Shown here piece by piece: positions 16,493-31,290 of a stretch of 32,000 nucleotides of DNA. Numbering within the stretch: the stretch's first letter is position 1; every line of letters starts with the position of its first letter. The notes under the pieces were generated by a model. It was not told where the DNA came from, searched no databases, and was given only the letters and a program-made list of their open reading frames with translations. Both the position numbers and the translations under genes were made by a program. The stretch comes from Moraxella nasicaprae (GTDB taxonomy: Bacteria > Pseudomonadota > Gammaproteobacteria > Pseudomonadales > Moraxellaceae). Where the stretch lies: positions 1,230,001 through 1,262,000 of the forward strand of contig NZ_CP089977.1 in assembly GCF_025643275.1 (NCBI RefSeq), written 5' to 3'.

Positions 16493-17356
16493 TCATCCGA
16501 TTGGCATGAATAGATACGCCATCACTGCCTTGCCAAAAAATAGCCCAACCACACCGCCGATGCTCAAATAAGGCCCAAAGGCAAAACGATGAGTGCCTTG
16601 TTTTTGATGATACAGACCTGCCGCCACCCCAAATAAAGCGGCGACAAACAGCACCAAAGGCAGCAGCCAAACTCCCAGCCAAATACCCAATACGCCCAGT
16701 AATTTGGCATCGCCAAGCCCCATGCCGTCATGCCCTGTGATGAGTCGATAGATGGCATTGATAAGCCATAACACACCAAAGCCTGCCACCGCACCAAGCA
16801 AGGCATCATTGGCTGTGGCAAAAGTATGATTGACATTGGCAATCATGCCCAGCAGTCCTAATATCACCACCAGTCGGTCGGGCAATAGCTGATGTTTGTA
16901 GTCAATGGCGGATAGTGCCAGCAAAAGATACACAAAAGCCAATACCCACAATAACTGCATGGATATGCCAAACACCCCAAGGCTCATCACGCTAAGCAAC
17001 ATTGCCATCAGTTCGATGAGTAGATAGCTTTTGGCGATTGGATTTTGGCAATGCCGACATCTGCCACCCAAAAGCAGATGGCTGATGATGGGAATGTTGT
17101 CACGCCAAGCAATGCGATGATGGCAATGCACACAATGTGATGCAGGATAGGATAGATTGATGGGCTGACTGTCAGACAGTTGGGCGATGAGTTCTGTTTG
17201 GCAGTCGGTGGATAAAGACTTCTCTTGCAAGTATTGTATGATGTCTTGATGCCATTGTTGATACATCATGATGGGCAAGCGATGAATGATGACATTGATA
17301 AAGCTGCCCATACAGGCTCCAATGATTGCCACGAATAGACCAATAATCCACATCAT
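16493..17356 (-). CDS. pilD: prepilin leader peptidase / N-methyltransferase (A24 family)
   Basis: 287 aa, polytopic. Cys pairs CVHCHH...CRHCQ of the methyltransferase domain and aspartyl peptidase motif GMGLGDAKLL. Confidence 0.9.
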   Translation of the reverse strand: MMWIIGLFVAIIGACMGSFINVIIHRLPIMMYQQWHQDIIQYLQEKSLSTDCQTELIAQLSDSQPINLSYPASHCVHCHHRIAWRDNIPIISHLLLGGRCRHCQNPIAKSYLLIELMAMLLSVMSLGVFGISMQLLWVLAFVYLLLALSAIDYKHQLLPDRLVVILGLLGMIANVNHTFATANDALLGAVAGFGVLWLINAIYRLITGHDGMGLGDAKLLGVLGIWLGVWLLPLVLFVAALFGVAAGLYHQKQGTHRFAFGPYLSIGGVVGLFFGKAVMAYLFMPIG

Positions 17357-17357
17357 C

Positions 17358-18563
17358 TTATGACCCTATGCCCAAATAAAAAATCGGTAAATACATCGCC
17401 AATACCAAAGTCCCAACCAATACGCCCAGCACAATCATGATGATGGGTTCTAGCATATTAAGCAGGGTTTTGGTTGTTTGTTGCACGGCATCTTGATGAT
17501 ACAAAGCGATTTTGTCAAGCATTTGTGTCAGCTGTCCAGATTCTTCGCCAATCATCATCAACTGTATGCTGATGGGTGTAAATAGACCCGATTGCTTGGC
17601 GGCGCTGGTTAGGGTGCTGCCTGTCTGCACTTGGGATTTGAGCGTGTGCATTTGCTCGATGAACAGTTCATCATTCGTGGCGTGGCTTGCCAGCTGTATG
17701 GCGTGTGGCAACGCCACCCCTGCACCAAAAGTGATGGCAAGTGCACTGGCAAATCTGGCATTGGCACTGTCTTTGAGTAATTGACCAATCACAGGTATTC
17801 GCATGATGTGCTTGATAAGATACAGACGAGTGGATTGACGACGACGATATCGCCAGCCGATGAATGCGGATATGGCAGCCAACATGATAAAACCATACCA
17901 AAAATAGGCACGCAATATTTCTGATAATTGTAGCACCAGCTGAGTCAATAACGGCAACTGACTACCCATCGATTCAAAGGTCTTGGCAAAACTTGGGACG
18001 ACTTTGAGTAGTAGCACCGTCATCACAATCAGTGCCACAGCCACAACCGCCACAGGATATCGCAGGGCTTGATGAAGGTTTTGTTTGAGTTTGACCTGAT
18101 TTTCATGATGATTGGCAAGCTGTATGAGCATCATATCTAGTGTGCCAGATTGTTCGCCAGCGTCGATGAGGGCGATGGTCAAGCGTCCAAAGATGTACTG
18201 GTGTTTTTTGATGGCATGGGCAAAACTTAGCCCAGATTCGATGTCTTGCCTGATTTGTGTGATGACTTGTTTTAGATGGCGATGATGGGTGTTTTGGGCG
18301 ATGATGGATAATGCTTTATCCAGCATGATGCCAGCCTGCACTAAGGTTGCCAGCGTTCTTAGTACGATGAGTAATTCTTTTGAGTGGACTTTGGTGCTGC
18401 GTGGCAACAGAGGTTTGCTGGCGACCGACAGGCGAATGTCAGACAACCCTTGTTTTGTCAGCGATACTTTGGCAAGAGCAGGATTGCTGGCTTGTATGTC
18501 GCCTTTGACTGTCTGTCCACGACGGTCGATGGCTTTGTAGCGAAAGTGTTTGGATTTAGTCAT
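17358..18563 (-). CDS. pilC: type IV pilus assembly platform protein PilC (GspF family)
   Basis: 401 aa with two T2SSF-type repeats (LRTLATLVQAGIMLDKAL / FASALAITFGAGVALPHAI) and three hydrophobic TM segments. It ends 1 nt before the pilD start. Confidence 0.9.
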   Translation of the reverse strand: MTKSKHFRYKAIDRRGQTVKGDIQASNPALAKVSLTKQGLSDIRLSVASKPLLPRSTKVHSKELLIVLRTLATLVQAGIMLDKALSIIAQNTHHRHLKQVITQIRQDIESGLSFAHAIKKHQYIFGRLTIALIDAGEQSGTLDMMLIQLANHHENQVKLKQNLHQALRYPVAVVAVALIVMTVLLLKVVPSFAKTFESMGSQLPLLTQLVLQLSEILRAYFWYGFIMLAAISAFIGWRYRRRQSTRLYLIKHIMRIPVIGQLLKDSANARFASALAITFGAGVALPHAIQLASHATNDELFIEQMHTLKSQVQTGSTLTSAAKQSGLFTPISIQLMMIGEESGQLTQMLDKIALYHQDAVQQTTKTLLNMLEPIIMIVLGVLVGTLVLAMYLPIFYLGIGS

Positions 18564-20217
18564 GTATCACCCGATACATTTCTTGCAAACTGATGATGCC
18601 GTCAGCCACCAATTGTAAGGCGGATTGTTTGAGGCTCAGATTGCCTGCTTGAAAGTTGTGTTTGGCGATGTCTTGACTGCTTTTTTGTTGAATAATCATA
18701 TCAGCGATGTCAGGCGTGATGGGCAGGCATTCAAAAACACCAATGCGTCCACGATAGCCATCTCGACAACGATGACAGCCCACCGCTTCAAAAATCACAG
18801 GTGGATTGTCACATTGTGCTGGCGAAAATCCTGCTTCGCTTAGGCTTTGTCTGGGGATTGTGATGGGGCGTTTGCAGTCACTGCATAGTTTTCTGGCAAG
18901 TCTTTGGGCGATGATGAGACTTACCGAATCAGCCAACAAAAAATTGACCACGCCCATGCTATGCAAGCGACCAACGGCTTCGCTGGATGAATTGGTGTGC
19001 AAAGTGGATAAGACCAAATGTCCTGTTTGGGCGGCTTTGATGGCGATTTGGGCGGTCTGAGTATCTCGTATCTCGCCCACCATAATCACATCAGGGTCTT
19101 GGCGTAAAAATGCTCGTAGTACTTCGGGAAAATCCAGTCCAATTTTTGGATTGATATTCACCTGATTGATGCCATTAAGATAGATTTCCACAGGGTCTTC
19201 GGCACTTAGAATATTACGATTTTCTTGATTGAGCAAACTAAGAGCGGTATATAATGACACCGTCTTGCCAGAGCCTGTTGGACCTGTGATGAGTATCATG
19301 CCTTGTGGTTTGTTGATGGCGGTCAAAAATTGCTGTTTTTGAATATCATTAAGACCAAGTTTGTCAATATCAATGAGAGATTTTTGCCCATCTAGGATTC
19401 TTAATACGACCTTTTCGCCAAATAAGGTGGGTAGGGTACTGACTCGAAAATCCACCGATTTGTGTTCACTGATGGGCAGTTTGATGCGTCCATCTTGGGG
19501 TTTTCTGCGTTCAGAAATATCCAGCGATGCCATGATTTTTAGGCGTGCGGCAATCTTATTGGCGTGACTGTTTGCCAAAGTGCTGATGGTGTGCATCACG
19601 CCATCAATGCGATAGCGAATGCGACACTGTGTCTCATAGGGTTCAAAATGAATGTCTGACGCTTGTAATTTTATGGCATCTGTTAGGATTTTATTCACAA
19701 ATTTGACGGTCGGTGTGTCCAAGATGGTTGTATCATCATCGGTGTTTTCGATGATTTCTTCGCCATCAAGCTCGATGGGTGTGCCAAAATGTTGTTTTTG
19801 GAGCCACTGGCTTAGCTTGTCTTCTTCGACCAGTACAGGCTCAATGTGCAATCTGGTGGCAAATCGAAAAGCGTCAATGGCTTCTTGATTGGTTGGGTCG
19901 CTCATCGCTAATTTAAGCCATTGTCCTTGTCTTTGCAAGGGCAACACTCGATGGCGAGTGATGAGTTTTTCGTCCAAATCATCAGGCAAAGCCTCATGCC
20001 AATCGTCCAAATCCATCACGGTCAATCCAAGCGTTTGGCTCAGTAGATTGGCGATGGTGCTGGCGGGCAGTAGATGCTGAGCGACCAAATGACTGACCAA
20101 GGGCATCGCCTGATTGCGTGCGTCTTGTATGGCGGTGTGCAGGGTTGTTTGGTCTAATAGTTGATGCGTGGATAAAATCTTGGCAAGCCCATGCCCAAAA
20201 ACAGCAGTATTCATCAT
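18556..20217 (-). CDS. pilB: type IV pilus extension ATPase PilB (GspE family)
   Basis: N-terminal GSPII-type domain, Walker A GPTGSGKT, Asp box, Walker B, His box, and a tetracysteine CSDC...CHRC motif. It has an 8-nt overlap with the pilC start. I trimmed the start to MMNTAVF (CAT 20215-20217), and 20214 is equally possible. Confidence 0.9.
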   Translation of the reverse strand: MMNTAVFGHGLAKILSTHQLLDQTTLHTAIQDARNQAMPLVSHLVAQHLLPASTIANLLSQTLGLTVMDLDDWHEALPDDLDEKLITRHRVLPLQRQGQWLKLAMSDPTNQEAIDAFRFATRLHIEPVLVEEDKLSQWLQKQHFGTPIELDGEEIIENTDDDTTILDTPTVKFVNKILTDAIKLQASDIHFEPYETQCRIRYRIDGVMHTISTLANSHANKIAARLKIMASLDISERRKPQDGRIKLPISEHKSVDFRVSTLPTLFGEKVVLRILDGQKSLIDIDKLGLNDIQKQQFLTAINKPQGMILITGPTGSGKTVSLYTALSLLNQENRNILSAEDPVEIYLNGINQVNINPKIGLDFPEVLRAFLRQDPDVIMVGEIRDTQTAQIAIKAAQTGHLVLSTLHTNSSSEAVGRLHSMGVVNFLLADSVSLIIAQRLARKLCSDCKRPITIPRQSLSEAGFSPAQCDNPPVIFEAVGCHRCRDGYRGRIGVFECLPITPDIADMIIQQKSSQDIAKHNFQAGNLSLKQSALQLVADGIISLQEMYRVIHD

Positions 20218-20388
20218 ACAAATTAAGCAAGTGGATAAAATATTGCCCTGATAGTAGCGTTTTTTGAGCAAAATACCAAGTGTTTTTGATGATTTTTGTG
20301 AAATTTACAAAATGCTTTTTATTTGTTGGCGAATTTAGGTTATAATGGTGCGTTTAGGGTGTATTGCTATTGTATCAATGGAAGTCTT

Positions 20389-26968: not shown

Positions 26969-27364
26969 ATGAATCAACGCTTACAACGATTGGCTGACCA
27001 AATCCAGCGAACCTTATCAAGTCTAATCCGTGATGAGATTAACGACCCTCGTTTGACGGGGTTTGTGACCATTTCTGGTGTCAAAGTCAGTCCAGACTTA
27101 GGCTATGCAGATGTCTATGTGACCATCTTGGAACCAAATCAAGACACAGGCATGAATAAAGAATCGCATCAAGAAAGTATGCAAATTTTAAACCGTGCAT
27201 CAGGATTTTTGCGAACGCAGTTATCTGCCACGATGAAAACTCGTACCACGCCACGCCTAAGATTTCATTATGATGAAGTGACGGCACACGGCAACCACAT
27301 GATGGATTTGATTAGCCAAGCCATGCGAGAAACTGCCAAAAATGACCATCAAGACGATGAATAA
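26969..27364 (+). CDS. rbfA: ribosome-binding factor A
   Basis: MNQRLQRLADQIQRTLSSLIRDEINDPRL...VTISGVKVSPDL..A.VYV fits the RbfA KH-like fold pattern. I trimmed the start to ATG 26969 (SD AGGAAA). Confidence 0.9.
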   Translation: MNQRLQRLADQIQRTLSSLIRDEINDPRLTGFVTISGVKVSPDLGYADVYVTILEPNQDTGMNKESHQESMQILNRASGFLRTQLSATMKTRTTPRLRFHYDEVTAHGNHMMDLISQAMRETAKNDHQDDE

Positions 27365-28283
27365 GCAAGTTGTTTCAGGCATTTTATTGCTGGATAAATC
27401 ACAAGGCATCAGTTCGCATTCAGCATTGGCAAAAGCCAAATATCTGTTCAAATCCGATTGCCAAGATTCAAAAAAAGCAGGGCATACAGGCACGCTAGAT
27501 CCGATGGCGACAGGTCTGTTGCCATTGTGTTTTGGGGAGGCGACCAAATTTGCTCAATATGGATTGGACGCTGACAAAGGCTATCATGCCATCATCAAAT
27601 TGGGCGTGCAGACCGATTCTGGCGATGCTGATGGGCAAGTCATCGCTCATCAAGCCGTGCCAGCATTTGTACAAGAAACGCTAGATGGTATTGCAAGCCA
27701 AATGATGGGGCAAATCATGCAAACGCCACCGATGTATTCTGCCCTAAAAAAAGATGGCAAAAAGCTCTATGAATATGCTCGTCAAGGCATTGAAGTTGAG
27801 CGAGAAGCTAGACCCATCATCATACATCAGCTAAGACTTGCCAAAATAGGCGATGATGAAGTGATGATGAATGTGGTTTGCTCCAAAGGTACTTATGTGC
27901 GAGTGTTGGGTGAAAGTGTGGCAGAGGCACTTGGGACGGTGGGTCATTTGACGCAGTTAAGACGCACGCTGACAGGTGGGTTTGATGTTACTGATGCCAT
28001 TGAGTTATCTGTGCTTGAAGCGTTATCCATGCCAGAGAGGATGGCACGATTATTGCCCATCGATGCGATGCTGACACATTTACCGATTTTAAGTATTGAT
28101 GAAACCCAAAAATCACGCCTAAAACTTGGGCAACGCCTTAATGTCAAAGACAAATTGGCAACTTTGCCCACCTTTGATGAATTGCTGTTGGTGCGATTAT
28201 ATGCTGATGGCGTGTTCATTGGCTTGGGCGAGCTTGCCAATTCTGGTCGATTACAGCCCATCAGATTGGTGCAGTCAGTATAA
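27342..28283 (+). CDS. truB: tRNA pseudouridine(55) synthase TruB
   Basis: GILLLDKSQGISSH, the catalytic Asp motif GHTGTLDPMATGLL, and YSALKKDGKKLYEYAR. The start is ambiguous between 27342 (23-nt overlap with rbfA) and ATG 27357 (8-nt overlap). Confidence 0.9.
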   Translation: MTIKTMNKQVVSGILLLDKSQGISSHSALAKAKYLFKSDCQDSKKAGHTGTLDPMATGLLPLCFGEATKFAQYGLDADKGYHAIIKLGVQTDSGDADGQVIAHQAVPAFVQETLDGIASQMMGQIMQTPPMYSALKKDGKKLYEYARQGIEVEREARPIIIHQLRLAKIGDDEVMMNVVCSKGTYVRVLGESVAEALGTVGHLTQLRRTLTGGFDVTDAIELSVLEALSMPERMARLLPIDAMLTHLPILSIDETQKSRLKLGQRLNVKDKLATLPTFDELLLVRLYADGVFIGLGELANSGRLQPIRLVQSV

Positions 28284-28333
28284 GAAAAGACCAATCAGTG
28301 TTTAAATTTTTTTGTAAATTTACCATTTTTTGC

Positions 28334-28362
28334 TTGCCGAATGTTGCGGGGGGGGGTAGAAT
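28334..28362 (+). promoter_or_regulatory. candidate promoter of OMP paralog 1 with a G9 tract in the spacer (TTGCCG-17 bp-TAGAAT)
   Basis: TTGCCG at 28334-28339 and TAGAAT at 28357-28362. The 17-bp spacer ends in nine consecutive G (28348-28356) abutting the -10 hexamer. It lies 68 nt upstream of the ATG at 28430. Confidence 0.5.
28348..28356. repeat. homopolymeric G9 tract
   Basis: Directly read as gttgc GGGGGGGGG tagaat. It is the only G/C homopolymer of this length that I noticed in the window. Confidence 0.95.
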
Positions 28363-28429
28363 ATCTTTGCTTTGTTAAAAGCGTGTTTCTATAAACTCTC
28401 AAACGGTTTTACAGTTTTAAGGATGTATT

Positions 28430-29050
28430 ATGAAAAAGCTACTTTTAGCTACCCTGTTGGCAGGCACTTCAATCCTAGCAATGGCGAATACTGCTGGCTT
28501 GTATGTACAAGGCAACATCGGTGTGTCTAAACTAGAAGCCAAAGCAGACGGTGAAAAATTTAAAGATAATAACACAGGATATACTATCGCTGTGGGTAAA
28601 GATGCAGGTGCGGTGCGTTATCAAGCTGATTATACTAACTTTGGCAAAATCGAAGAAAGTGGATCGGATGGTGTTGCTGGCGTTGCTGGCTATGACGAGT
28701 GGGACTCGGTTCTAAAAGCTCAATCATTGGGCGTATCTGCCATCTATGATTTCCAAACTGTGTCAGGCTTTACCCCTTATGCAGGCGTGCGTGTTGGCGT
28801 GAATCAGCTGAAATTTGAAGAGGATGTGAGATATTCAACAATTGATTTGAATGGTGCTTACACGGTGTATTCTGCAAATGAATCATATAAAAAGACCAAA
28901 GTTGGTGCAGGTGTGCTTGCAGGTGTACAATATGCCATCAACCCGCAACTTGCTGTGGATGCTGGTGTTGAGTATAACTATCTTGGTAAACTCGAAGATA
29001 CTAAATTAAATCAATACGGTGCAAAAGTGGGTCTGCGTTACAATTTCTAA
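28430..29050 (+). CDS. small outer-membrane beta-barrel protein, Opa-like/OmpA-like 8-strand type (paralog 1)
   Basis: 206 aa with signal peptide MKKLLLATLLAGTSILAMA. Alternating-hydrophobicity strands and an aromatic C-terminus GLRYNF. SD TAAGGA. Confidence 0.8.
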   Translation: MKKLLLATLLAGTSILAMANTAGLYVQGNIGVSKLEAKADGEKFKDNNTGYTIAVGKDAGAVRYQADYTNFGKIEESGSDGVAGVAGYDEWDSVLKAQSLGVSAIYDFQTVSGFTPYAGVRVGVNQLKFEEDVRYSTIDLNGAYTVYSANESYKKTKVGAGVLAGVQYAINPQLAVDAGVEYNYLGKLEDTKLNQYGAKVGLRYNF

Positions 29051-29066
29051 TCGTCATGCCCGTATC

Positions 29067-29096
29067 AAACCCATCGTGCAAACGGTGGGTTTTTTG
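29067..29096 (+). terminator. rho-independent terminator after OMP paralog 1
   Basis: AAACCCATCG / CGGTGGGTTT stem (one G-U pair), then T-run. It is conserved after all three paralogs. Confidence 0.75.
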
Positions 29097-29102
29097 TGTT
29101 GT

Positions 29103-29131
29103 TTGACAAATGAACAAGTGTGCTTTATTAA
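29103..29131 (+). promoter_or_regulatory. candidate promoter (TTGACA-17 bp-TATTAA) in the conserved inter-paralog block
   Basis: Perfect -35 at 29103-29108 and TATTAA at 29126-29131. The same block recurs at 30034-30062. Confidence 0.45.
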
Positions 29132-29326
29132 AGGATTTGTTCATGAATTCTAAGTTCACTATTGATTATTTTGAAGGTGTTGTTTGGTAATATTTGGTAA
29201 AATCTTTACAAAATATTACTAATTGTTAGAAATTATCTATTATAATACCACCATCGATTGAATTTATATATCGATTGATTGGTATCGATGTACCAAATAA
29301 TCCATTGAATAAATAATAGGTGATTT

Positions 29327-29980
29327 ATGAAAAAGACAATTTTTGCAGCAGCAGCCTTAGCGTTATCAGCACAAGCATTGGCAATCGAATTGCCAACAAG
29401 CAACTCGCCATACTATGCACAAGCCGATGTTGGTTATTCACACATCAATGCTAAACACACTGGCGAAACCGTCAAAGAGGGCGATGTGGCGTTCCGTGTG
29501 GCGTTGGGTCGCACTTATGGCAACACTCGCTATGCGGTGGATTATACCCGTTTTGGTGGTGCTGAGAAGCGTGTTTATTCAGCCAAAACCGTAGCGGCAG
29601 GCGAGATGCCATTTGTACCAGCAGACACTTATACCCTAGAAAATTCAAATGATGTTGAAGTACATTCTGTGGGCGTGTCAGCGTATTATGATTTTGCTAA
29701 GATGAATCAATTCACACCGTATGTGGGTGCAAGATTGGGCGTAAACCGCCTAAGCCACGACATTGGCGAAGATTTGCACATTGGTGGCGAAGATTATGAC
29801 ATCAGCGGACATAGTGTTAATAAAACCAAAGTGGGTGCAGGCGTATCAGCAGGTGTACAATACGAAATCAATCCAGCATTGACGCTAGATGTTGGTGCAG
29901 AGTACAACCACTTTGGTAAAGTTGAAGACATCAAAGTGCATCAATATGGTGCAAAATTGGGTCTGCGTTACAATTTCTAA
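29327..29980 (+). CDS. small outer-membrane beta-barrel protein, Opa-like/OmpA-like type (paralog 2)
   Basis: 217 aa with signal peptide MKKTIFAAAALALSAQALA. It shares the strand blocks and the GLRYNF terminus with paralogs 1 and 3. SD TAGGTGA. Confidence 0.8.
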   Translation: MKKTIFAAAALALSAQALAIELPTSNSPYYAQADVGYSHINAKHTGETVKEGDVAFRVALGRTYGNTRYAVDYTRFGGAEKRVYSAKTVAAGEMPFVPADTYTLENSNDVEVHSVGVSAYYDFAKMNQFTPYVGARLGVNRLSHDIGEDLHIGGEDYDISGHSVNKTKVGAGVSAGVQYEINPALTLDVGAEYNHFGKVEDIKVHQYGAKLGLRYNF

Positions 29981-29997
29981 TCGTCATACCCATCATC

Positions 29998-30026
29998 AAA
30001 CCCATCGTGCAAGCGGTGGGTTTTTT
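29998..30026 (+). terminator. rho-independent terminator after OMP paralog 2
   Basis: AAACCCATCG / CGGTGGGTTT plus T6, the same element as at 29067. Confidence 0.75.
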
Positions 30027-30033
30027 GCGTTAT

Positions 30034-30062
30034 TTGACAAATGAACAAGTGTGCTTTATCAT
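30034..30062 (+). promoter_or_regulatory. candidate promoter of OMP paralog 3 (TTGACA-17 bp-TATCAT)
   Basis: Perfect -35 at 30034-30039 and TATCAT at 30057-30062, 37 nt before the ATG at 30099. Confidence 0.5.
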
Positions 30063-30098
30063 ATGCCTAAATCCATAATGTGAGTAAGGTTTTTTAAG

Positions 30099-30749
30099 AT
30101 GAATAAATTTTATCCAATCATTGCTTTGGCTTTATTTTCAACAGGAGCATTGGCAAATGTTGATGGTGTGTATGTGCAGGGTTCTGTTGGCTTATCCAAA
30201 TTAAGCACCAAACATGACGGTGAAAAATTGACCGATGATAAGGCACTCATCAGAGCAAGCGTTGGCAAGCAGGTTGGCAATATGCGTTATGCACTTGATT
30301 ATAGTGATTTTGGTAAAGTTGAGTCGGTACAGACAGAAGTGTTTGAGGCGGATGAAGGTTATCATAATGGACCTTATATTGAGACCGAAACCATGTTGGA
30401 TAACATCAAAGTGCGTTCATTTGGTGTATCGGCAATCTATGATTTTCCATTACATTCTGCCGTCAATGCGTATGCAGGTCTTAGAGTGGGGGCAAATAAG
30501 ATTGATGCCAAACAGCAAAGCAGAACAAAAACAGTCTATGACAACAAAGAGCTTGGCACAACTGAGGTTGCCAGTCAGCATCAGCAAGCCAAAACCAAGA
30601 TTGGCGTTGGTGTGTTAGCAGGTGTGCAATACCAGCTGACATCAAATGTGGCACTAGATGCAGGCGTGGAATACAATCAACTGGGCAAATCTGACCAAAT
30701 CAAGGCTCATCAGTATGGCATCACTGCTGGTCTGCGTTACAATTTCTAA
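30099..30749 (+). CDS. small outer-membrane beta-barrel protein, Opa-like/OmpA-like type (paralog 3)
   Basis: 216 aa with signal peptide MNKFYPIIALALFSTGALA. It has the same conserved strand blocks and GLRYNF terminus. Confidence 0.8.
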   Translation: MNKFYPIIALALFSTGALANVDGVYVQGSVGLSKLSTKHDGEKLTDDKALIRASVGKQVGNMRYALDYSDFGKVESVQTEVFEADEGYHNGPYIETETMLDNIKVRSFGVSAIYDFPLHSAVNAYAGLRVGANKIDAKQQSRTKTVYDNKELGTTEVASQHQQAKTKIGVGVLAGVQYQLTSNVALDAGVEYNQLGKSDQIKAHQYGITAGLRYNF

Positions 30750-30766
30750 TCGTCATGCCCATCATC

Positions 30767-30795
30767 AAACCCATCGTGCAGGCGGTGGGTTTTTG
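30767..30795 (+). terminator. rho-independent terminator after OMP paralog 3
   Basis: Third copy of the AAACCCATCG / CGGTGGGTTT hairpin plus T-run. Confidence 0.7.
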
Positions 30796-30829
30796 TATAA
30801 AAATCTGCCAATTTCCCAAAACAAAAAAG

Positions 30830-30858
30830 CTGACTTTTGCTAAATTAACTGTTATAAT
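30830..30858 (+). promoter_or_regulatory. candidate rpsO promoter (CTGACT-17 bp-TATAAT)
   Basis: Perfect TATAAT at 30853-30858 and a weak -35, CTGACT, at 30830-30835. Confidence 0.4.
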
Positions 30859-30949: not shown

Positions 30950-31216
30950 ATGCTAACTAATCAAGATCGTGAAGCAATCATTGCACAATACAAGCGTGGC
31001 GAGAATGACACTGGTAGCCCAGAGGTTCAAGTTGCCCTATTGACCGCTCGTATCAACGACCTACAAGACCACTTCAAAACTCACAAAGCTGACCATCACA
31101 GCCGTCGTGGTCTAATCCGTATGGTAAACCAACGCCGTAAATTGCTAGACTACCTAAAAGGTAAAGACCTAAACCGCTATACCGACCTAATCGGTTCATT
31201 GGGTCTGCGTCGTTAA
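30950..31216 (+). CDS. rpsO: 30S ribosomal protein S15
   Basis: 88 aa with [39 protein letters not shown], unmistakably S15. Confidence 0.95.
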
Positions 31217-31255
31217 TCACTCTGTTGAGTGGCGATGATTGCGTAACGCAACAAG

Positions 31256-31290
31256 AAACGGCGTGCTTTGGCGTGCCGTTTTTATTTTTT
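31256..31290 (+). terminator. rho-independent terminator/attenuator after rpsO
   Basis: About 11-bp stem AAACGGCGTGC / GCGTGCCGTTT (two G-U pairs), 4-nt loop, then TTTTTATTTTTT. Confidence 0.75.

What the first reader, a model, noticed from the sequence alone, without database searches (positions are those of the whole stretch)
28284..30800. Three tandem, strongly diverged Opa-like beta-barrel OMP paralogs inserted in the conserved truB-rpsO junction
Three same-strand ORFs of 206, 217 and 216 aa each have a cleavable signal peptide ending in A-x-A and the identical C-terminus GLRYNF. A terminal Phe is typical of BAM substrates.

Aligned by eye, they share short blocks:
- YVQG.(I/V)G.SKL (paralogs 1 and 3)
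- RY..DY..FG
- GVSA.YDF
- (P/A)Y.G.R.G.N
- KTK(V/I)G.GV.AGVQY
- D(A/V)G.EYN..GK
- QYG...GLRYNF

Three intervening stretches have no detectable similarity and differ in length. One example is ESGSDGVAGVAGYDEWDSVLKAQ versus AEKRVYSAKTVAAGEMPFVPADTYTLENSNDVEVH versus VESVQTEVFEADEGYHNGPYIETETMLDNIKVR. This conserved-strand and hypervariable-loop pattern is what is known for Neisseria Opa and other 8-stranded barrels under immune or phage selection.

Context: secG-tRNALeu / tRNAfMet-rimP-nusA-infB-rbfA-truB-rpsO-pnp is a very widely conserved arrangement in which rpsO directly follows truB in E. coli. Here about 2.6 kb of surface-protein genes with their own promoters and terminators sit in that junction. 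I see no integrase, transposase or flanking direct repeats, so local duplication and divergence is more likely than a mobile island.
Basis: partly seen in the sequence, partly recalled or inferred. Interest (0 to 1): 0.65.

Follow-up and report, generated by a model that had tools for sequence, protein, structure and literature searches.

The report
Switchable Opa-like surface protein gene array
A Moraxella genome carries three old, divergent copies of an Opa-type outer-membrane barrel gene between truB and rpsO; the copy number differs between strains, and the first copy sits behind a slippery run of Gs in its promoter that probably turns its expression up and down.

Summary
Three same-strand ORFs (28430-29050, 29327-29980, 30099-30749) lie between truB and rpsO. 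All three match Pfam Opacity PF02462 (E 1e-27 to 3e-33). AlphaFold models of copies 1 and 2 are 8-stranded barrels, and the best PDB fold match is NspA. The conserved blocks are the membrane strands. The unalignable stretches are external loops 2 and 3.

The locus is not a strain-specific insertion. Seven other Moraxella lineages carry 1-2 Opa-family genes at truB-rpsO, and two near-identical strains lack copy 1.

The paralogs are ancient. Synonymous sites are saturated, and copy 1 is closer to a Neisseriaceae homolog than to its neighbours. Alleles within the species are nearly identical, with dN/dS of 0.1-0.25, so Neisseria-style hypervariability is not shown.

It is G9, G10 or G11 in otherwise near-identical contigs. 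Three assemblies break exactly at it. The promoter is conserved across species, with an intact tract in four lineages and an interrupted one in three.

Best reading: a genus-wide, copy-number-variable Opa-family locus whose core gene is phase-variable at the level of transcription. This is a new variant of known kinds and of moderate interest.

The parts
27342..28283 (+). truB, the left flank. Its last ~4 codons lie inside the polymorphic segment.
   Evidence: Pfam TruB_N/TruB-C_2 in the near-identical L085. The breakpoint at window 28271/28272 comes.
28272..29130 (+). 859-nt segment that is present or absent between strains: promoter, copy 1, terminator and the D3 repeat. It is present in the window and L081-L084. 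In L085/L086 an unrelated 19 nt takes its place.
   Evidence: blastn; junction sequences.
28334..28362 (+). Promoter of copy 1: -35 TTGCCG (28334-28339), 17-nt spacer, -10 TAGAAT (28357-28362).
   Evidence: The homologous -35/-10 pair is conserved in seven Moraxella lineages.
28348..28356 (+). G9 homopolymer inside the promoter spacer; predicted slipped-strand switch.
   Evidence: It is the only G/C run of 6 or more in the 32 kb. Lengths are G9, G10, G11, G11 and G9 in otherwise near-identical contigs. Three contigs end exactly after nine Gs. Other species have G7, G10 or G11, or interrupted tracts.
28430..29050 (+). Copy 1 (opa1-type 'core' gene), 206 aa: signal peptide 1-19 and an 8-stranded barrel.
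   Evidence: Pfam PF02462 E 2.9e-33. AF2 pLDDT 91.4, 8 strands. Foldseek best hit NspA, E 3.7e-12. Orthologs are at the same locus in six other lineages.
29064..29128 (+). Repeat D3 copy 1: terminator hairpin (29067-29092) plus TTGACA-17-TATTAA (29103-29131).
   Evidence: The right end of the polymorphic segment coincides with the end of D3.
29184..29222 (.). AT-rich palindrome (18-nt arms) upstream of a TATAAT (29241-29246) that lacks a good -35; a possible regulator site for copy 2.
   Evidence: I2. Conserved in L085. Its function is inferred only.
29327..29980 (+). Copy 2, 217 aa, an accessory paralog with a long loop 2.
   Evidence: Pfam PF02462 E 1e-27. AF2 pLDDT 88.2, 8 strands. There is only one close database cluster (98%); the next is at 54%.
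29995..30062 (+). Repeat D3 copy 2: terminator (29998-30023) plus the copy-3 promoter TTGACA-17-TATCAT (30034-30062, 11 of 12 consensus matches).
30099..30749 (+). Copy 3, 216 aa, an accessory paralog.
   Evidence: Pfam PF02462 E 7.2e-30. The allele in L085/L086 is 91% identical and has a 7-aa insertion in loop 1.
30767..30792 (+). Third copy of the shared terminator hairpin.
   Evidence: 2 mismatches; D2 repeat.
30950..31216 (+). rpsO, the right flank, with its own promoter-like site (30830-30858) and terminator (31254-31283).

Best explanation
What it is. This is the Moraxella genus's resident Opa-family locus. It lies between truB and rpsO and here holds three independently transcribed genes. 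Each encodes a small outer-membrane protein with a signal peptide and an 8-stranded beta-barrel that ends in a C-terminal Phe. The strands are conserved, and external loops 2 and 3 are long and paralog-specific.

Copy 1 is the 'core' gene. Its orthologs occupy this locus in every sampled Moraxella lineage that has the locus, except two strains that lost it. Copies 2 and 3 are old, lineage-restricted accessory paralogs.

How the array changes. A near-identical 66-100 nt block (end of the CDS, terminator, promoter piece) follows each gene. It gives homology for recombination, and whole cassettes are gained, lost or exchanged between strains.

How copy 1 is switched (inferred). A poly-G tract in the spacer between -35 and -10 changes length by slipped-strand mispairing. 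G9 gives the optimal 17-nt spacer (high expression). G10 gives 18 nt and G11 gives 19 nt (low or off). A population would therefore always contain cells with and without this surface protein.

Likely protein role (inferred from Opa, NspA, OlpA and Ail, not tested). The proteins probably act in host adhesion and/or binding of complement regulators through loops 2 and 3.

Shown: family, fold, loop mapping, locus conservation, copy-number polymorphism, and tract-length polymorphism confined to the G run. Inferred: the promoter assignment, the effect of tract length on transcription, and the ligand function.
For: Family and fold. All three proteins match PF02462 far above the gathering score. By sequence they hit Opa60 (2e-17) and NspA (6e-16). 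The AF2 models have 8 strands, with pLDDT 91.4 and 88.2. Foldseek returns NspA, OmpA-TM, Ail and OmpX.

Loop mapping. Mean column entropy is 1.06 bits in the transmembrane strands against 2.76 in L2 and L3 over 98 homologs. It is 0.62 against 1.9-2.0 within the opa1-type group (permutation p<=1e-4). Between paralogs, strands are 55-62% identical, L2 14-25% and L3 24-33%.

Locus conservation and copy number:
- 1 copy: M. nasovis, L088-L091, L096-L099
- 2 copies: M. cuniculi, Moraxella sp. FZLJ2107, L095, L085/L086
- 3 copies: the window

Copy-1 polymorphism. L085 and L086 have truB 96.6% identical in DNA to the window's but lack the 859-nt copy-1 cassette.

Poly-G tract. It is the only G/C run of 6 or more in 32 kb. 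It lies in the spacer of TTGCCG-17-TAGAAT. It is G9, G10, G11, G11 and G9 in five contigs. Among L082, L083 and L084 the 170-nt region differs only in the tract. Three further contigs from sibling samples end exactly after nine Gs, as expected at an assembly-graph branch between G9 and longer alleles.

Promoter conservation. The same -35/tract/-10 layout occurs in L095 (G11), FZLJ2107 (G7, TTGACA-16-TAGAAT) and M. cuniculi (G10). The tract is interrupted, with a fixed 18-nt spacer, in M. nasovis, L096-L099 and L088. The genes with this promoter form one clade.

Precedent. Upstream G(n) tracts give graded transcription of uspA1 in M. catarrhalis (PMC7302503). Poly-C and poly-G tracts control the promoters of opc and porA in meningococci (references listed).
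Against: - No expression data exist, and the transcription start is not mapped. The -35 in the window is weak (4 of 6).
- Tract lengths come from short-read metagenome assemblies (Logan). Homopolymer miscalls or graph artefacts could mimic variation and contig breaks. No read-level data were available.
- The closest characterised Moraxella relative, OlpA of M. catarrhalis, is (from my memory of Brooks et al. 2007; the paper is not held) conserved and constitutively expressed. It is absent from the M. catarrhalis list of phase-variable loci.
- Three lineages have interrupted tracts, so switching is clearly dispensable.
- Within-species alleles are almost invariant and dN/dS is 0.1-0.25, which gives no direct sign of immune selection.
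- Periplasmic turns are also fairly variable (2.08 bits). Part of the loop divergence may therefore be relaxed constraint.
Confidence: 0.62

Rival explanations
1. These are ordinary, constitutively expressed small structural or serum-resistance barrels, like OlpA and NspA. On this view the G tract is just part of a promoter spacer, its length differences are neutral strain polymorphism or assembly error, and the three copies are stable old paralogs with separate fixed roles.
For: Within-species alleles are nearly identical and under purifying selection. Three lineages carry interrupted, non-slippery tracts with a fixed 18-nt spacer. OlpA is not among the M. catarrhalis phase-variable loci. Copies 2 and 3 have no repeats at all.
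Against: Three tract lengths occur in contigs that are otherwise identical over 170 nt. Three contigs break exactly at the tract. Uninterrupted G7-G11 tracts are kept at the same promoter position in four lineages whose truB genes are only ~70% identical in DNA. Copy number does differ between near-identical strains.
Confidence: 0.25
2. The array was built mainly by horizontal import of foreign Opa cassettes, by transformation and homologous recombination through the conserved 3' block and truB, rather than by local duplication.
For: Copy 1 is closer to a Bergeriella homolog (51%) than to copies 2 and 3 (44-45%). The accessory genes of different species are unrelated to each other (27-47%). 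Gene order differs: the core gene is next to rpsO in FZLJ2107 and M. cuniculi, but next to truB here. At the copy-1 breakpoint the truB tail switches allele type, from QPIRLVQSV to QPKKLVS.
Against: G+C content is like that of the flanks. No donor sequence was identified. The three terminators are near-identical within this genome, which fits in-place duplication or gene conversion equally well. Saturated dS cannot separate old duplication from import.
Confidence: 0.35
3. It is a mobile genomic island or phage-derived cargo inserted at truB-rpsO.
For: About 2.6 kb of extra DNA sits in a junction that is tight in many other proteobacteria. Direct repeats are present.
Against: There is no integrase, transposase or phage gene in the 32 kb. 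The repeats are internal cassette ends, not flanking att-like sites. The same locus is occupied across the genus. Composition is unremarkable.
Confidence: 0.03

Closest known systems
Neisseria Opa (opacity) adhesins, e.g. Opa60 (PDB 2MAF/2MLH)
   Same: Same Pfam family PF02462. Same 8-stranded barrel with four external loops. L1 is semi-variable, L2 and L3 are highly divergent and L4 is conserved. There are several paralogs per genome, and expression is (predicted to be) switched by repeat slippage.
   Different: There is no CTCTT pentamer repeat in the signal-peptide coding region. The predicted switch acts on transcription through a promoter poly-G tract, and only on one copy. The copies are tandem at one locus rather than dispersed. 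Alleles within the species are nearly identical, not hypervariable. The loops are shorter (206-217 aa precursors; the Opa60 chain in the PDB is 238 aa). Receptor binding is unknown.
Moraxella catarrhalis OlpA (Opa-like protein A; Brooks et al. 2007, J Bacteriol 189:76, cited in PMC4860680)
   Same: It is the Opa-family small barrel in the same genus. It is surface-exposed and linked to serum resistance (PMC5862889).
   Different: OlpA is reported as a single, conserved, constitutively expressed gene (my recollection of the paper, which was not available). It is not in the M. catarrhalis phase-variable catalogue. Here there are three copies, copy-number polymorphism and a variable promoter tract. 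Orthology and the genomic position of olpA could not be tested.
Neisseria NspA (PDB 1P4T)
   Same: It is the best structural match (Foldseek E 3.7e-12, 28% identity) and a sequence match (6e-16). It is an 8-stranded barrel.
   Different: NspA is smaller (155 aa chain), has short loops, is single-copy and is highly conserved.
Promoter-spacer homopolymer phase variation: meningococcal opc (poly-C) and porA (poly-G); M. catarrhalis uspA1 upstream G(n)
   Same: A G/C homopolymer of 7-11 nt sits between or next to the -35 and -10 elements of an outer-membrane protein gene. Its length varies between strains and sets the spacer length (16-19 nt here).
   Different: The effect on expression is not measured here. 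uspA1's tract lies 29 bp upstream of the ORF and belongs to a trimeric autotransporter gene, not an Opa-family gene.

Membership tests
Opacity family porin (Pfam PF02462) | HMM match above the gathering score over the whole model | tested here: met
   115.1, 97.2 and 104.1 bits against a cutoff of 21, covering model positions 1-126 or 2-126 of 126.
Opacity family porin (Pfam PF02462) | 8-stranded antiparallel beta-barrel with a signal peptide and a C-terminal aromatic residue | tested here: met
   AF2 gives 8 strands for copies 1 and 2. Foldseek hits are all 8-strand barrels. The signal peptides end in AxA and the proteins end in ...RYNF.
Neisseria Opa adhesins in the strict sense | Variable regions SV/HV1/HV2 lie on external loops 1-3, with loop 4 conserved | tested here: met
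   Entropy and identity by structural element. This holds between paralogs and between species only.
Neisseria Opa adhesins in the strict sense | Allelic hypervariability of HV1/HV2 within a species | tested here: not met
   Loop identity between same-species alleles is 100%, 96.6% and 89%, with dN/dS of 0.1-0.25. Few alleles were available.
Neisseria Opa adhesins in the strict sense | Translational phase variation by CTCTT repeats in the leader-peptide coding region | tested here: not met
   No pentamer repeats in or near the genes.
Neisseria Opa adhesins in the strict sense | Binding to CEACAM or heparan sulfate proteoglycan | not testable with these tools
   This needs binding assays.
M. 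catarrhalis OlpA orthologs | Sequence orthology to OlpA and the same genomic position | not tested
   No OlpA sequence or M. catarrhalis locus could be retrieved. The paper is not held, and no named M. catarrhalis hit appeared.
Promoter-spacer homopolymer phase variation (opc/porA type) | A homopolymer of about 7 nt or more between the -35 and -10 hexamers | tested here: met
   G9 lies in TTGCCG-17-TAGAAT. The hexamers are conserved in seven lineages.
Promoter-spacer homopolymer phase variation (opc/porA type) | Tract length differs between closely related strains while the flanks do not | tested here: met
   G9, G10, G11, G11 and G9. L082, L083 and L084 are identical apart from the tract.
Promoter-spacer homopolymer phase variation (opc/porA type) | Length heterogeneity within a single population | tested here: inconclusive
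   Three contigs from three samples stop exactly after nine Gs. This is consistent with a graph branch, but reads were not available.
Promoter-spacer homopolymer phase variation (opc/porA type) | Expression level follows tract length | not testable with these tools
   This needs reporter fusions, qRT-PCR or immunoblots.
Mobile genomic island | Integrase or transposase, flanking att repeats, atypical composition, patchy and variable location | tested here: not met
   No mobility genes. G+C of 0.40-0.45 is like the flanks. The site is the same across the genus.

The most novel reading that the evidence does not exclude
Moraxella species keep a single dedicated 'expression site' for Opa-family surface barrels at truB-rpsO, and it combines two kinds of variation. 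The first is a stochastic transcriptional switch (promoter poly-G slippage) on the core gene. The second is cassette-level gain, loss and exchange of highly divergent accessory paralogs, mediated by a conserved 66-100 nt 3' block. This would be a one-locus counterpart of the dispersed, coding-repeat-switched opa system of Neisseria. It would have evolved separately in a different class of Proteobacteria from the same protein family.
Probability: 0.3. Interest if true: 0.55.

Novelty: new variant of a known kind. Interest (0 to 1): 0.4.

Why it matters
Animal-associated Moraxella cause or accompany eye and airway disease such as bovine pinkeye, and vaccines against them work poorly. A surface barrel that is switched on and off and whose gene copy number differs between strains would be an unreliable vaccine antigen. 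It would also be a likely determinant of host attachment or complement evasion.

The locus also shows how the Opa family can acquire phase variation by a different route than in Neisseria: a promoter homopolymer rather than a coding pentamer. It gives a simple, testable marker (tract length at truB-rpsO) for population studies.

It is not a new principle. Both the protein family and the type of switch are well known.

Tried and rejected
- The single genome-contig scan, run with TruB, returned mostly Betaproteobacteria and only one Moraxella MAG. It served only as an outgroup set for truB-rpsO adjacency.
- Looking up copy 1 by window coordinates failed. The same protein worked as P0001.
- A scan of JGI metagenomes for the promoter plus G tract found nothing.
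- The OlpA paper could not be read by DOI or PMC id, so OlpA's properties rest on citing papers and on memory.
- The Neisseria chenwenguii homolog had no contig on record.
- Rfam found only the two tRNAs. It found nothing in the array or in the 470-nt insert of L088.
- Tests for positive selection (Nei-Gojobori by region) gave dN/dS below 1 everywhere it could be measured. Comparisons between paralogs are saturated.
- A search for a recent gene-conversion tract inside the coding regions found none. pS is 0.5-0.9 throughout, and only the last 21 nt of the CDS plus the terminator are homogenised.
- CTCTT-type coding repeats are absent.
- The mobile-island reading was rejected.
Full report

Yes. 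The ORF listing gives three + strand ORFs:

| Copy | Coordinates | Length |
|---|---|---|
| 1 | 28430-29050 | 206 aa |
| 2 | 29327-29980 | 217 aa |
| 3 | 30099-30749 | 216 aa |

They lie between truB (27342-28283) and rpsO (30950-31216). Pfam confirms the flanking genes rbfA and rpsO. The whole order is seen in the window and in the near-identical annotated locus L085: pilD/pilC/pilB, tpiA, secG, tRNA-Leu, tRNA-Met, rimP, nusA, infB, rbfA, truB, the Opa genes, rpsO, pnp.

The three proteins have signal peptides ending in AMA, ALA and ALA. All end in GLRYNF.

**2. What the proteins are**

All three match Pfam Opacity (PF02462) over the whole model, at E 2.9e-33, 1e-27 and 7.2e-30. Copy 1 hits Opa60 (2MAF, 2e-17) and NspA (1P4T, 6e-16) by sequence.

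AlphaFold2 with family alignments gives confident 8-stranded barrels. Copy 1 has pLDDT 91.4 and pTM 0.81. Copy 2 has pLDDT 88.2 and pTM 0.76. Foldseek against the PDB returns NspA first (E 3.7e-12), then the OmpA transmembrane domain, Ail and OmpX.

I took the three short periplasmic turns of the model as anchors. On that basis:
- The unalignable stretches are external loops L2 (residues 73-96 of copy 1) and L3 (125-158).
- L1 is semi-variable and L4 is conserved.

| Region | Mean entropy, 98 homologs (bits) | Mean entropy, opa1-type subgroup (bits) |
|---|---|---|
| Strands | 1.06 | 0.62 |
| L2, L3 | 2.76 | 1.9-2.0 |

The permutation p for the subgroup is <=1e-4. Between the three paralogs, strands are 55-62% identical, L2 14-25% and L3 24-33%.

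One caveat: the periplasmic turns are also fairly variable (2.08 bits). Part of the pattern may simply be weaker constraint outside the membrane.

**3. The locus in relatives**

The window comes from a 2.1-Mb Moraxella genome. NCBI already names these proteins 'opacity family porin' in many Moraxella species.

Content of the truB-rpsO interval in Moraxella:

| Lineage | Opa-family genes |
|---|---|
| M. nasovis | 1 |
| 2.78-Mb Moraxella genome and relatives (L088-L091) | 1 |
| L096-L099 | 1 |
| M. cuniculi | 2 |
| Moraxella sp. FZLJ2107 | 2 |
| L095 | 2 |
| This window | 3 |

Outside Moraxella:
- In 50 of 79 other proteobacterial truB loci, rpsO follows within 87-292 nt. None has an Opa gene.
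- A Bergeriella (Neisseriaceae) homolog sits at an unrelated site.
- One distant Moraxella MAG (L001) and two Acinetobacter loci do not have rpsO after truB at all.

The junction is therefore occupied across much of the genus. It is not a peculiarity of this strain.

**4. Copy-number polymorphism within the species**

L085 (a Moraxella MAG, GCA_030530725.1) and L086 have truB 96.6% identical in DNA to the window's, and they carry copies 2 and 3 at about 95% DNA identity. They lack copy 1. Window 28272-29130 (859 nt) holds the promoter, copy 1, its terminator and the D3 repeat. In L085 and L086 an unrelated 19 nt takes its place.

The left breakpoint is inside the last codons of truB. There the TruB tail changes from QPIRLVQSV to QPKKLVS, which is the type seen in FZLJ2107. 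The right breakpoint is exactly at the end of D3. This looks like allelic replacement by recombination rather than a clean deletion.

L081-L084 carry copy 1 at 99.5-100% protein identity to the window's. L081 also carries copy 2.

**5. Age and origin of the paralogs**

Synonymous sites between the paralogs are saturated: pS is 0.5-0.9 in every 25-codon window, and dS is above 1.4 or undefined.

In a tree of all locus genes, the genes with the G-tract promoter form one clade, together with gene 1 of M. cuniculi, which lacks the tract. This is the opa1-type or 'core' gene. The clade contains window copy 1, L096, L088, gene 1 of L095, gene B of FZLJ2107, M. nasovis and both M. cuniculi genes.

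Copies 2 and 3, gene A of FZLJ2107 and gene 2 of L095 are long, separate branches. They are 27-47% identical to everything else. Copy 1 is closer to the Bergeriella protein (51%) than to its own neighbours (44-45%). Copy 2 has only one close database cluster (98%), and the next is at 54%.

The duplication is therefore very old, or the accessory genes evolved fast, or they were imported. The data cannot decide between these.

In contrast, the last 21 nt of each CDS, the terminator hairpin and (after copies 1 and 2) a TTGACA promoter piece are 93-97% identical between copies. The hairpin occurs only at these three places in the window. This points to concerted evolution of the cassette ends, and it provides homology for cassette gain and loss.

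The G+C content of the array (0.40-0.45) is like that of the flanks. There are no mobility genes in the 32 kb.

**6. No evidence for Neisseria-like allelic hypervariability**

| Gene | Loop identity between same-species alleles |
|---|---|
| Copy 1 | 100% |
| Copy 2 | 96.6% |
| Copy 3 | 89% (plus a 7-aa insertion in L1) |

dN/dS is 0.1-0.25 in loops and about 0.1 in strands. Between species (copy 1 against its FZLJ2107 ortholog) loops are 66% identical and strands 88%, but dS is saturated. Few alleles were available, so this is absence of evidence rather than proof.

**7.

The only G or C run of 6 or more in the whole window is G9 at 28348-28356. It lies inside the 17-nt spacer of the promoter-like site TTGCCG-N17-TAGAAT (28334-28362), 67 nt upstream of the start codon.

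Five sequences of this species were compared:

| Sequence | Tract |
|---|---|
| window | G9 |
| L084 | G9 |
| L081 | G10 |
| L082 | G11 |
| L083 | G11 |

L082, L083 and L084 are identical over the 170-nt region apart from the tract. Three more contigs, from sibling samples SRR30679767, SRR30679778 and SRR30679768, end exactly after the ninth G. That is where a de Bruijn graph would branch if G9 and longer alleles coexist in a sample. This is suggestive, not proof.

The same promoter is conserved across species:

| Lineage | Tract | Spacer (nt) |
|---|---|---|
| L095 | G11 | 19 |
| FZLJ2107 gene B (TTGACA-N16-TAGAAT) | G7 | 16 |
| M. cuniculi gene 2 | G10 | 19 |
| M. nasovis | interrupted, GGGAGGGG | 18 |
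| L096-L099 | interrupted, GGAGAGGGG | 18 |
| L088 | interrupted, GGGGAGGAGG | 18 |

In each locus only one gene has this promoter. Copies 2 and 3 have no repeats. There are no CTCTT coding repeats of the Neisseria opa type.

**8. Mechanism proposed**

Slipped-strand mispairing changes the G-tract length and so the distance between -35 and -10. G9 gives 17 nt, the optimum for a sigma-70 promoter. G10 gives 18 nt and G11 gives 19 nt, which is poor. Transcription of copy 1 would then switch between high and low or off, reversibly and at random.

This is the known logic of poly-C in the meningococcal opc promoter and poly-G in porA (references listed). It is also the logic of the upstream G(n) tract of M. 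catarrhalis uspA1, where tract length changes mRNA about 20-fold (PMC7302503).

Copies 2 and 3 have their own promoters and terminators and are probably expressed independently. Copy 3 has a near-consensus TTGACA-17-TATCAT. Copy 2 has a TATAAT without a good -35, preceded by an 18-nt-arm palindrome (29184-29222) that may bind a regulator.

By analogy with Opa, NspA, OlpA and Ail, the proteins are likely to act in adhesion and/or binding of complement regulators through L2 and L3. This was not tested.

**9. Comparison with what is known**

- Pfam Opacity family: the genes are members, and all tested features are met.
- Neisseria Opa in the strict sense: they resemble it in fold and loop pattern. 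They fail two tested defining features, the coding pentamer switch and allelic hypervariability. They also differ in being tandem at one site.
- M. catarrhalis OlpA: this is the closest characterised protein in the genus. It is reported as single, conserved and constitutive (Brooks et al. 2007; I could not read the paper, so this rests on memory and on citing papers). It is not in the M. catarrhalis catalogue of phase-variable loci. I could not test orthology or whether olpA lies at truB-rpsO.
- Literature on this locus: I found no paper describing a truB-rpsO Opa array or its poly-G promoter in Moraxella.

**10. Verdict**

It needs correction on four points. The locus is genus-wide and old. 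Direct repeats are present. Hypervariability under selection is not shown. The main regulatory feature was missed.

The finding is a new variant of known kinds: an Opa-family locus combined with a promoter-homopolymer switch and cassette copy-number variation.

Confidence by part:
- About 0.95 for the identity of the proteins.
- About 0.6 for functional phase variation.
- About 0.3 for the fuller 'single expression site with cassette exchange' picture.

Interest is moderate (0.4). The finding is useful for Moraxella surface-antigen biology and for vaccine thinking, but it would not surprise a specialist.

Noticed in passing
window 29184-29222: AT-rich palindrome with 18-nt arms (TTGGTAATATTTGGTAAA / TTTACAAAATATTACTAA, 3 nt apart). 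It lies just upstream of a TATAAT (29241-29246) that has no good -35, ahead of copy 2. It is conserved in L085 and could be a regulator binding site.
   Followed up: partly
L088 5530-5995 (GCA_039693965.1, 2.78-Mb Moraxella genome): About 470 nt lies between the conserved (interrupted-G) promoter and the Opa start codon, against 41-69 nt in the other lineages. It looks like an insertion in the 5' leader. No Rfam family matched.
   Followed up: partly
window 28255-28283 vs L085 9765-9791: The last codons of truB differ at the copy-1 breakpoint (QPIRLVQSV* against QPKKLVS*). The L085 version resembles Moraxella sp. FZLJ2107, which suggests recombination with DNA from another lineage.
   Followed up: partly
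L085 10773-11444 and L086 2585-3256 vs window 30099-30749: The copy-3 allele of the two-copy strains carries a 7-residue insertion (SFGILLN) in external loop 1 and is 91% identical overall. It is the most variable of the three genes within the species.
   Followed up: partly
window 28669-28690: A 9-nt in-frame tandem repeat (TGGCGTTGC x 2.4) encodes GVAGVAG at the tip of loop 2 of copy 1. It did not vary among the same-species contigs seen.
   Followed up: partly
L001 6766-7984 (Moraxella MAG S5R_Sa_41): In this more distant Moraxella, truB is followed by a Sel1-like repeat protein gene (containing an assembly gap) and then sucA. It is not followed by Opa genes or rpsO, so the truB-rpsO linkage is not universal in the genus.
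   Followed up: no
L016, L033 (Acinetobacter) and ranking: The two Acinetobacter loci have no rpsO within 10 kb after truB. This Moraxella TruB also scored higher against Rhodocyclales/Azonexaceae TruB (48-50%) than against Acinetobacter TruB (42-43%). That may be an artefact of how candidates were pre-selected.
   Followed up: no
window 16493-20271 (- strand): Type IV pilus assembly genes lie upstream of tpiA-secG: prepilin peptidase, a PilC-like T2SSF protein and a PilB-like T2SSE ATPase. This fits a naturally transformable Moraxella, which is relevant to cassette exchange by recombination.
   Followed up: no
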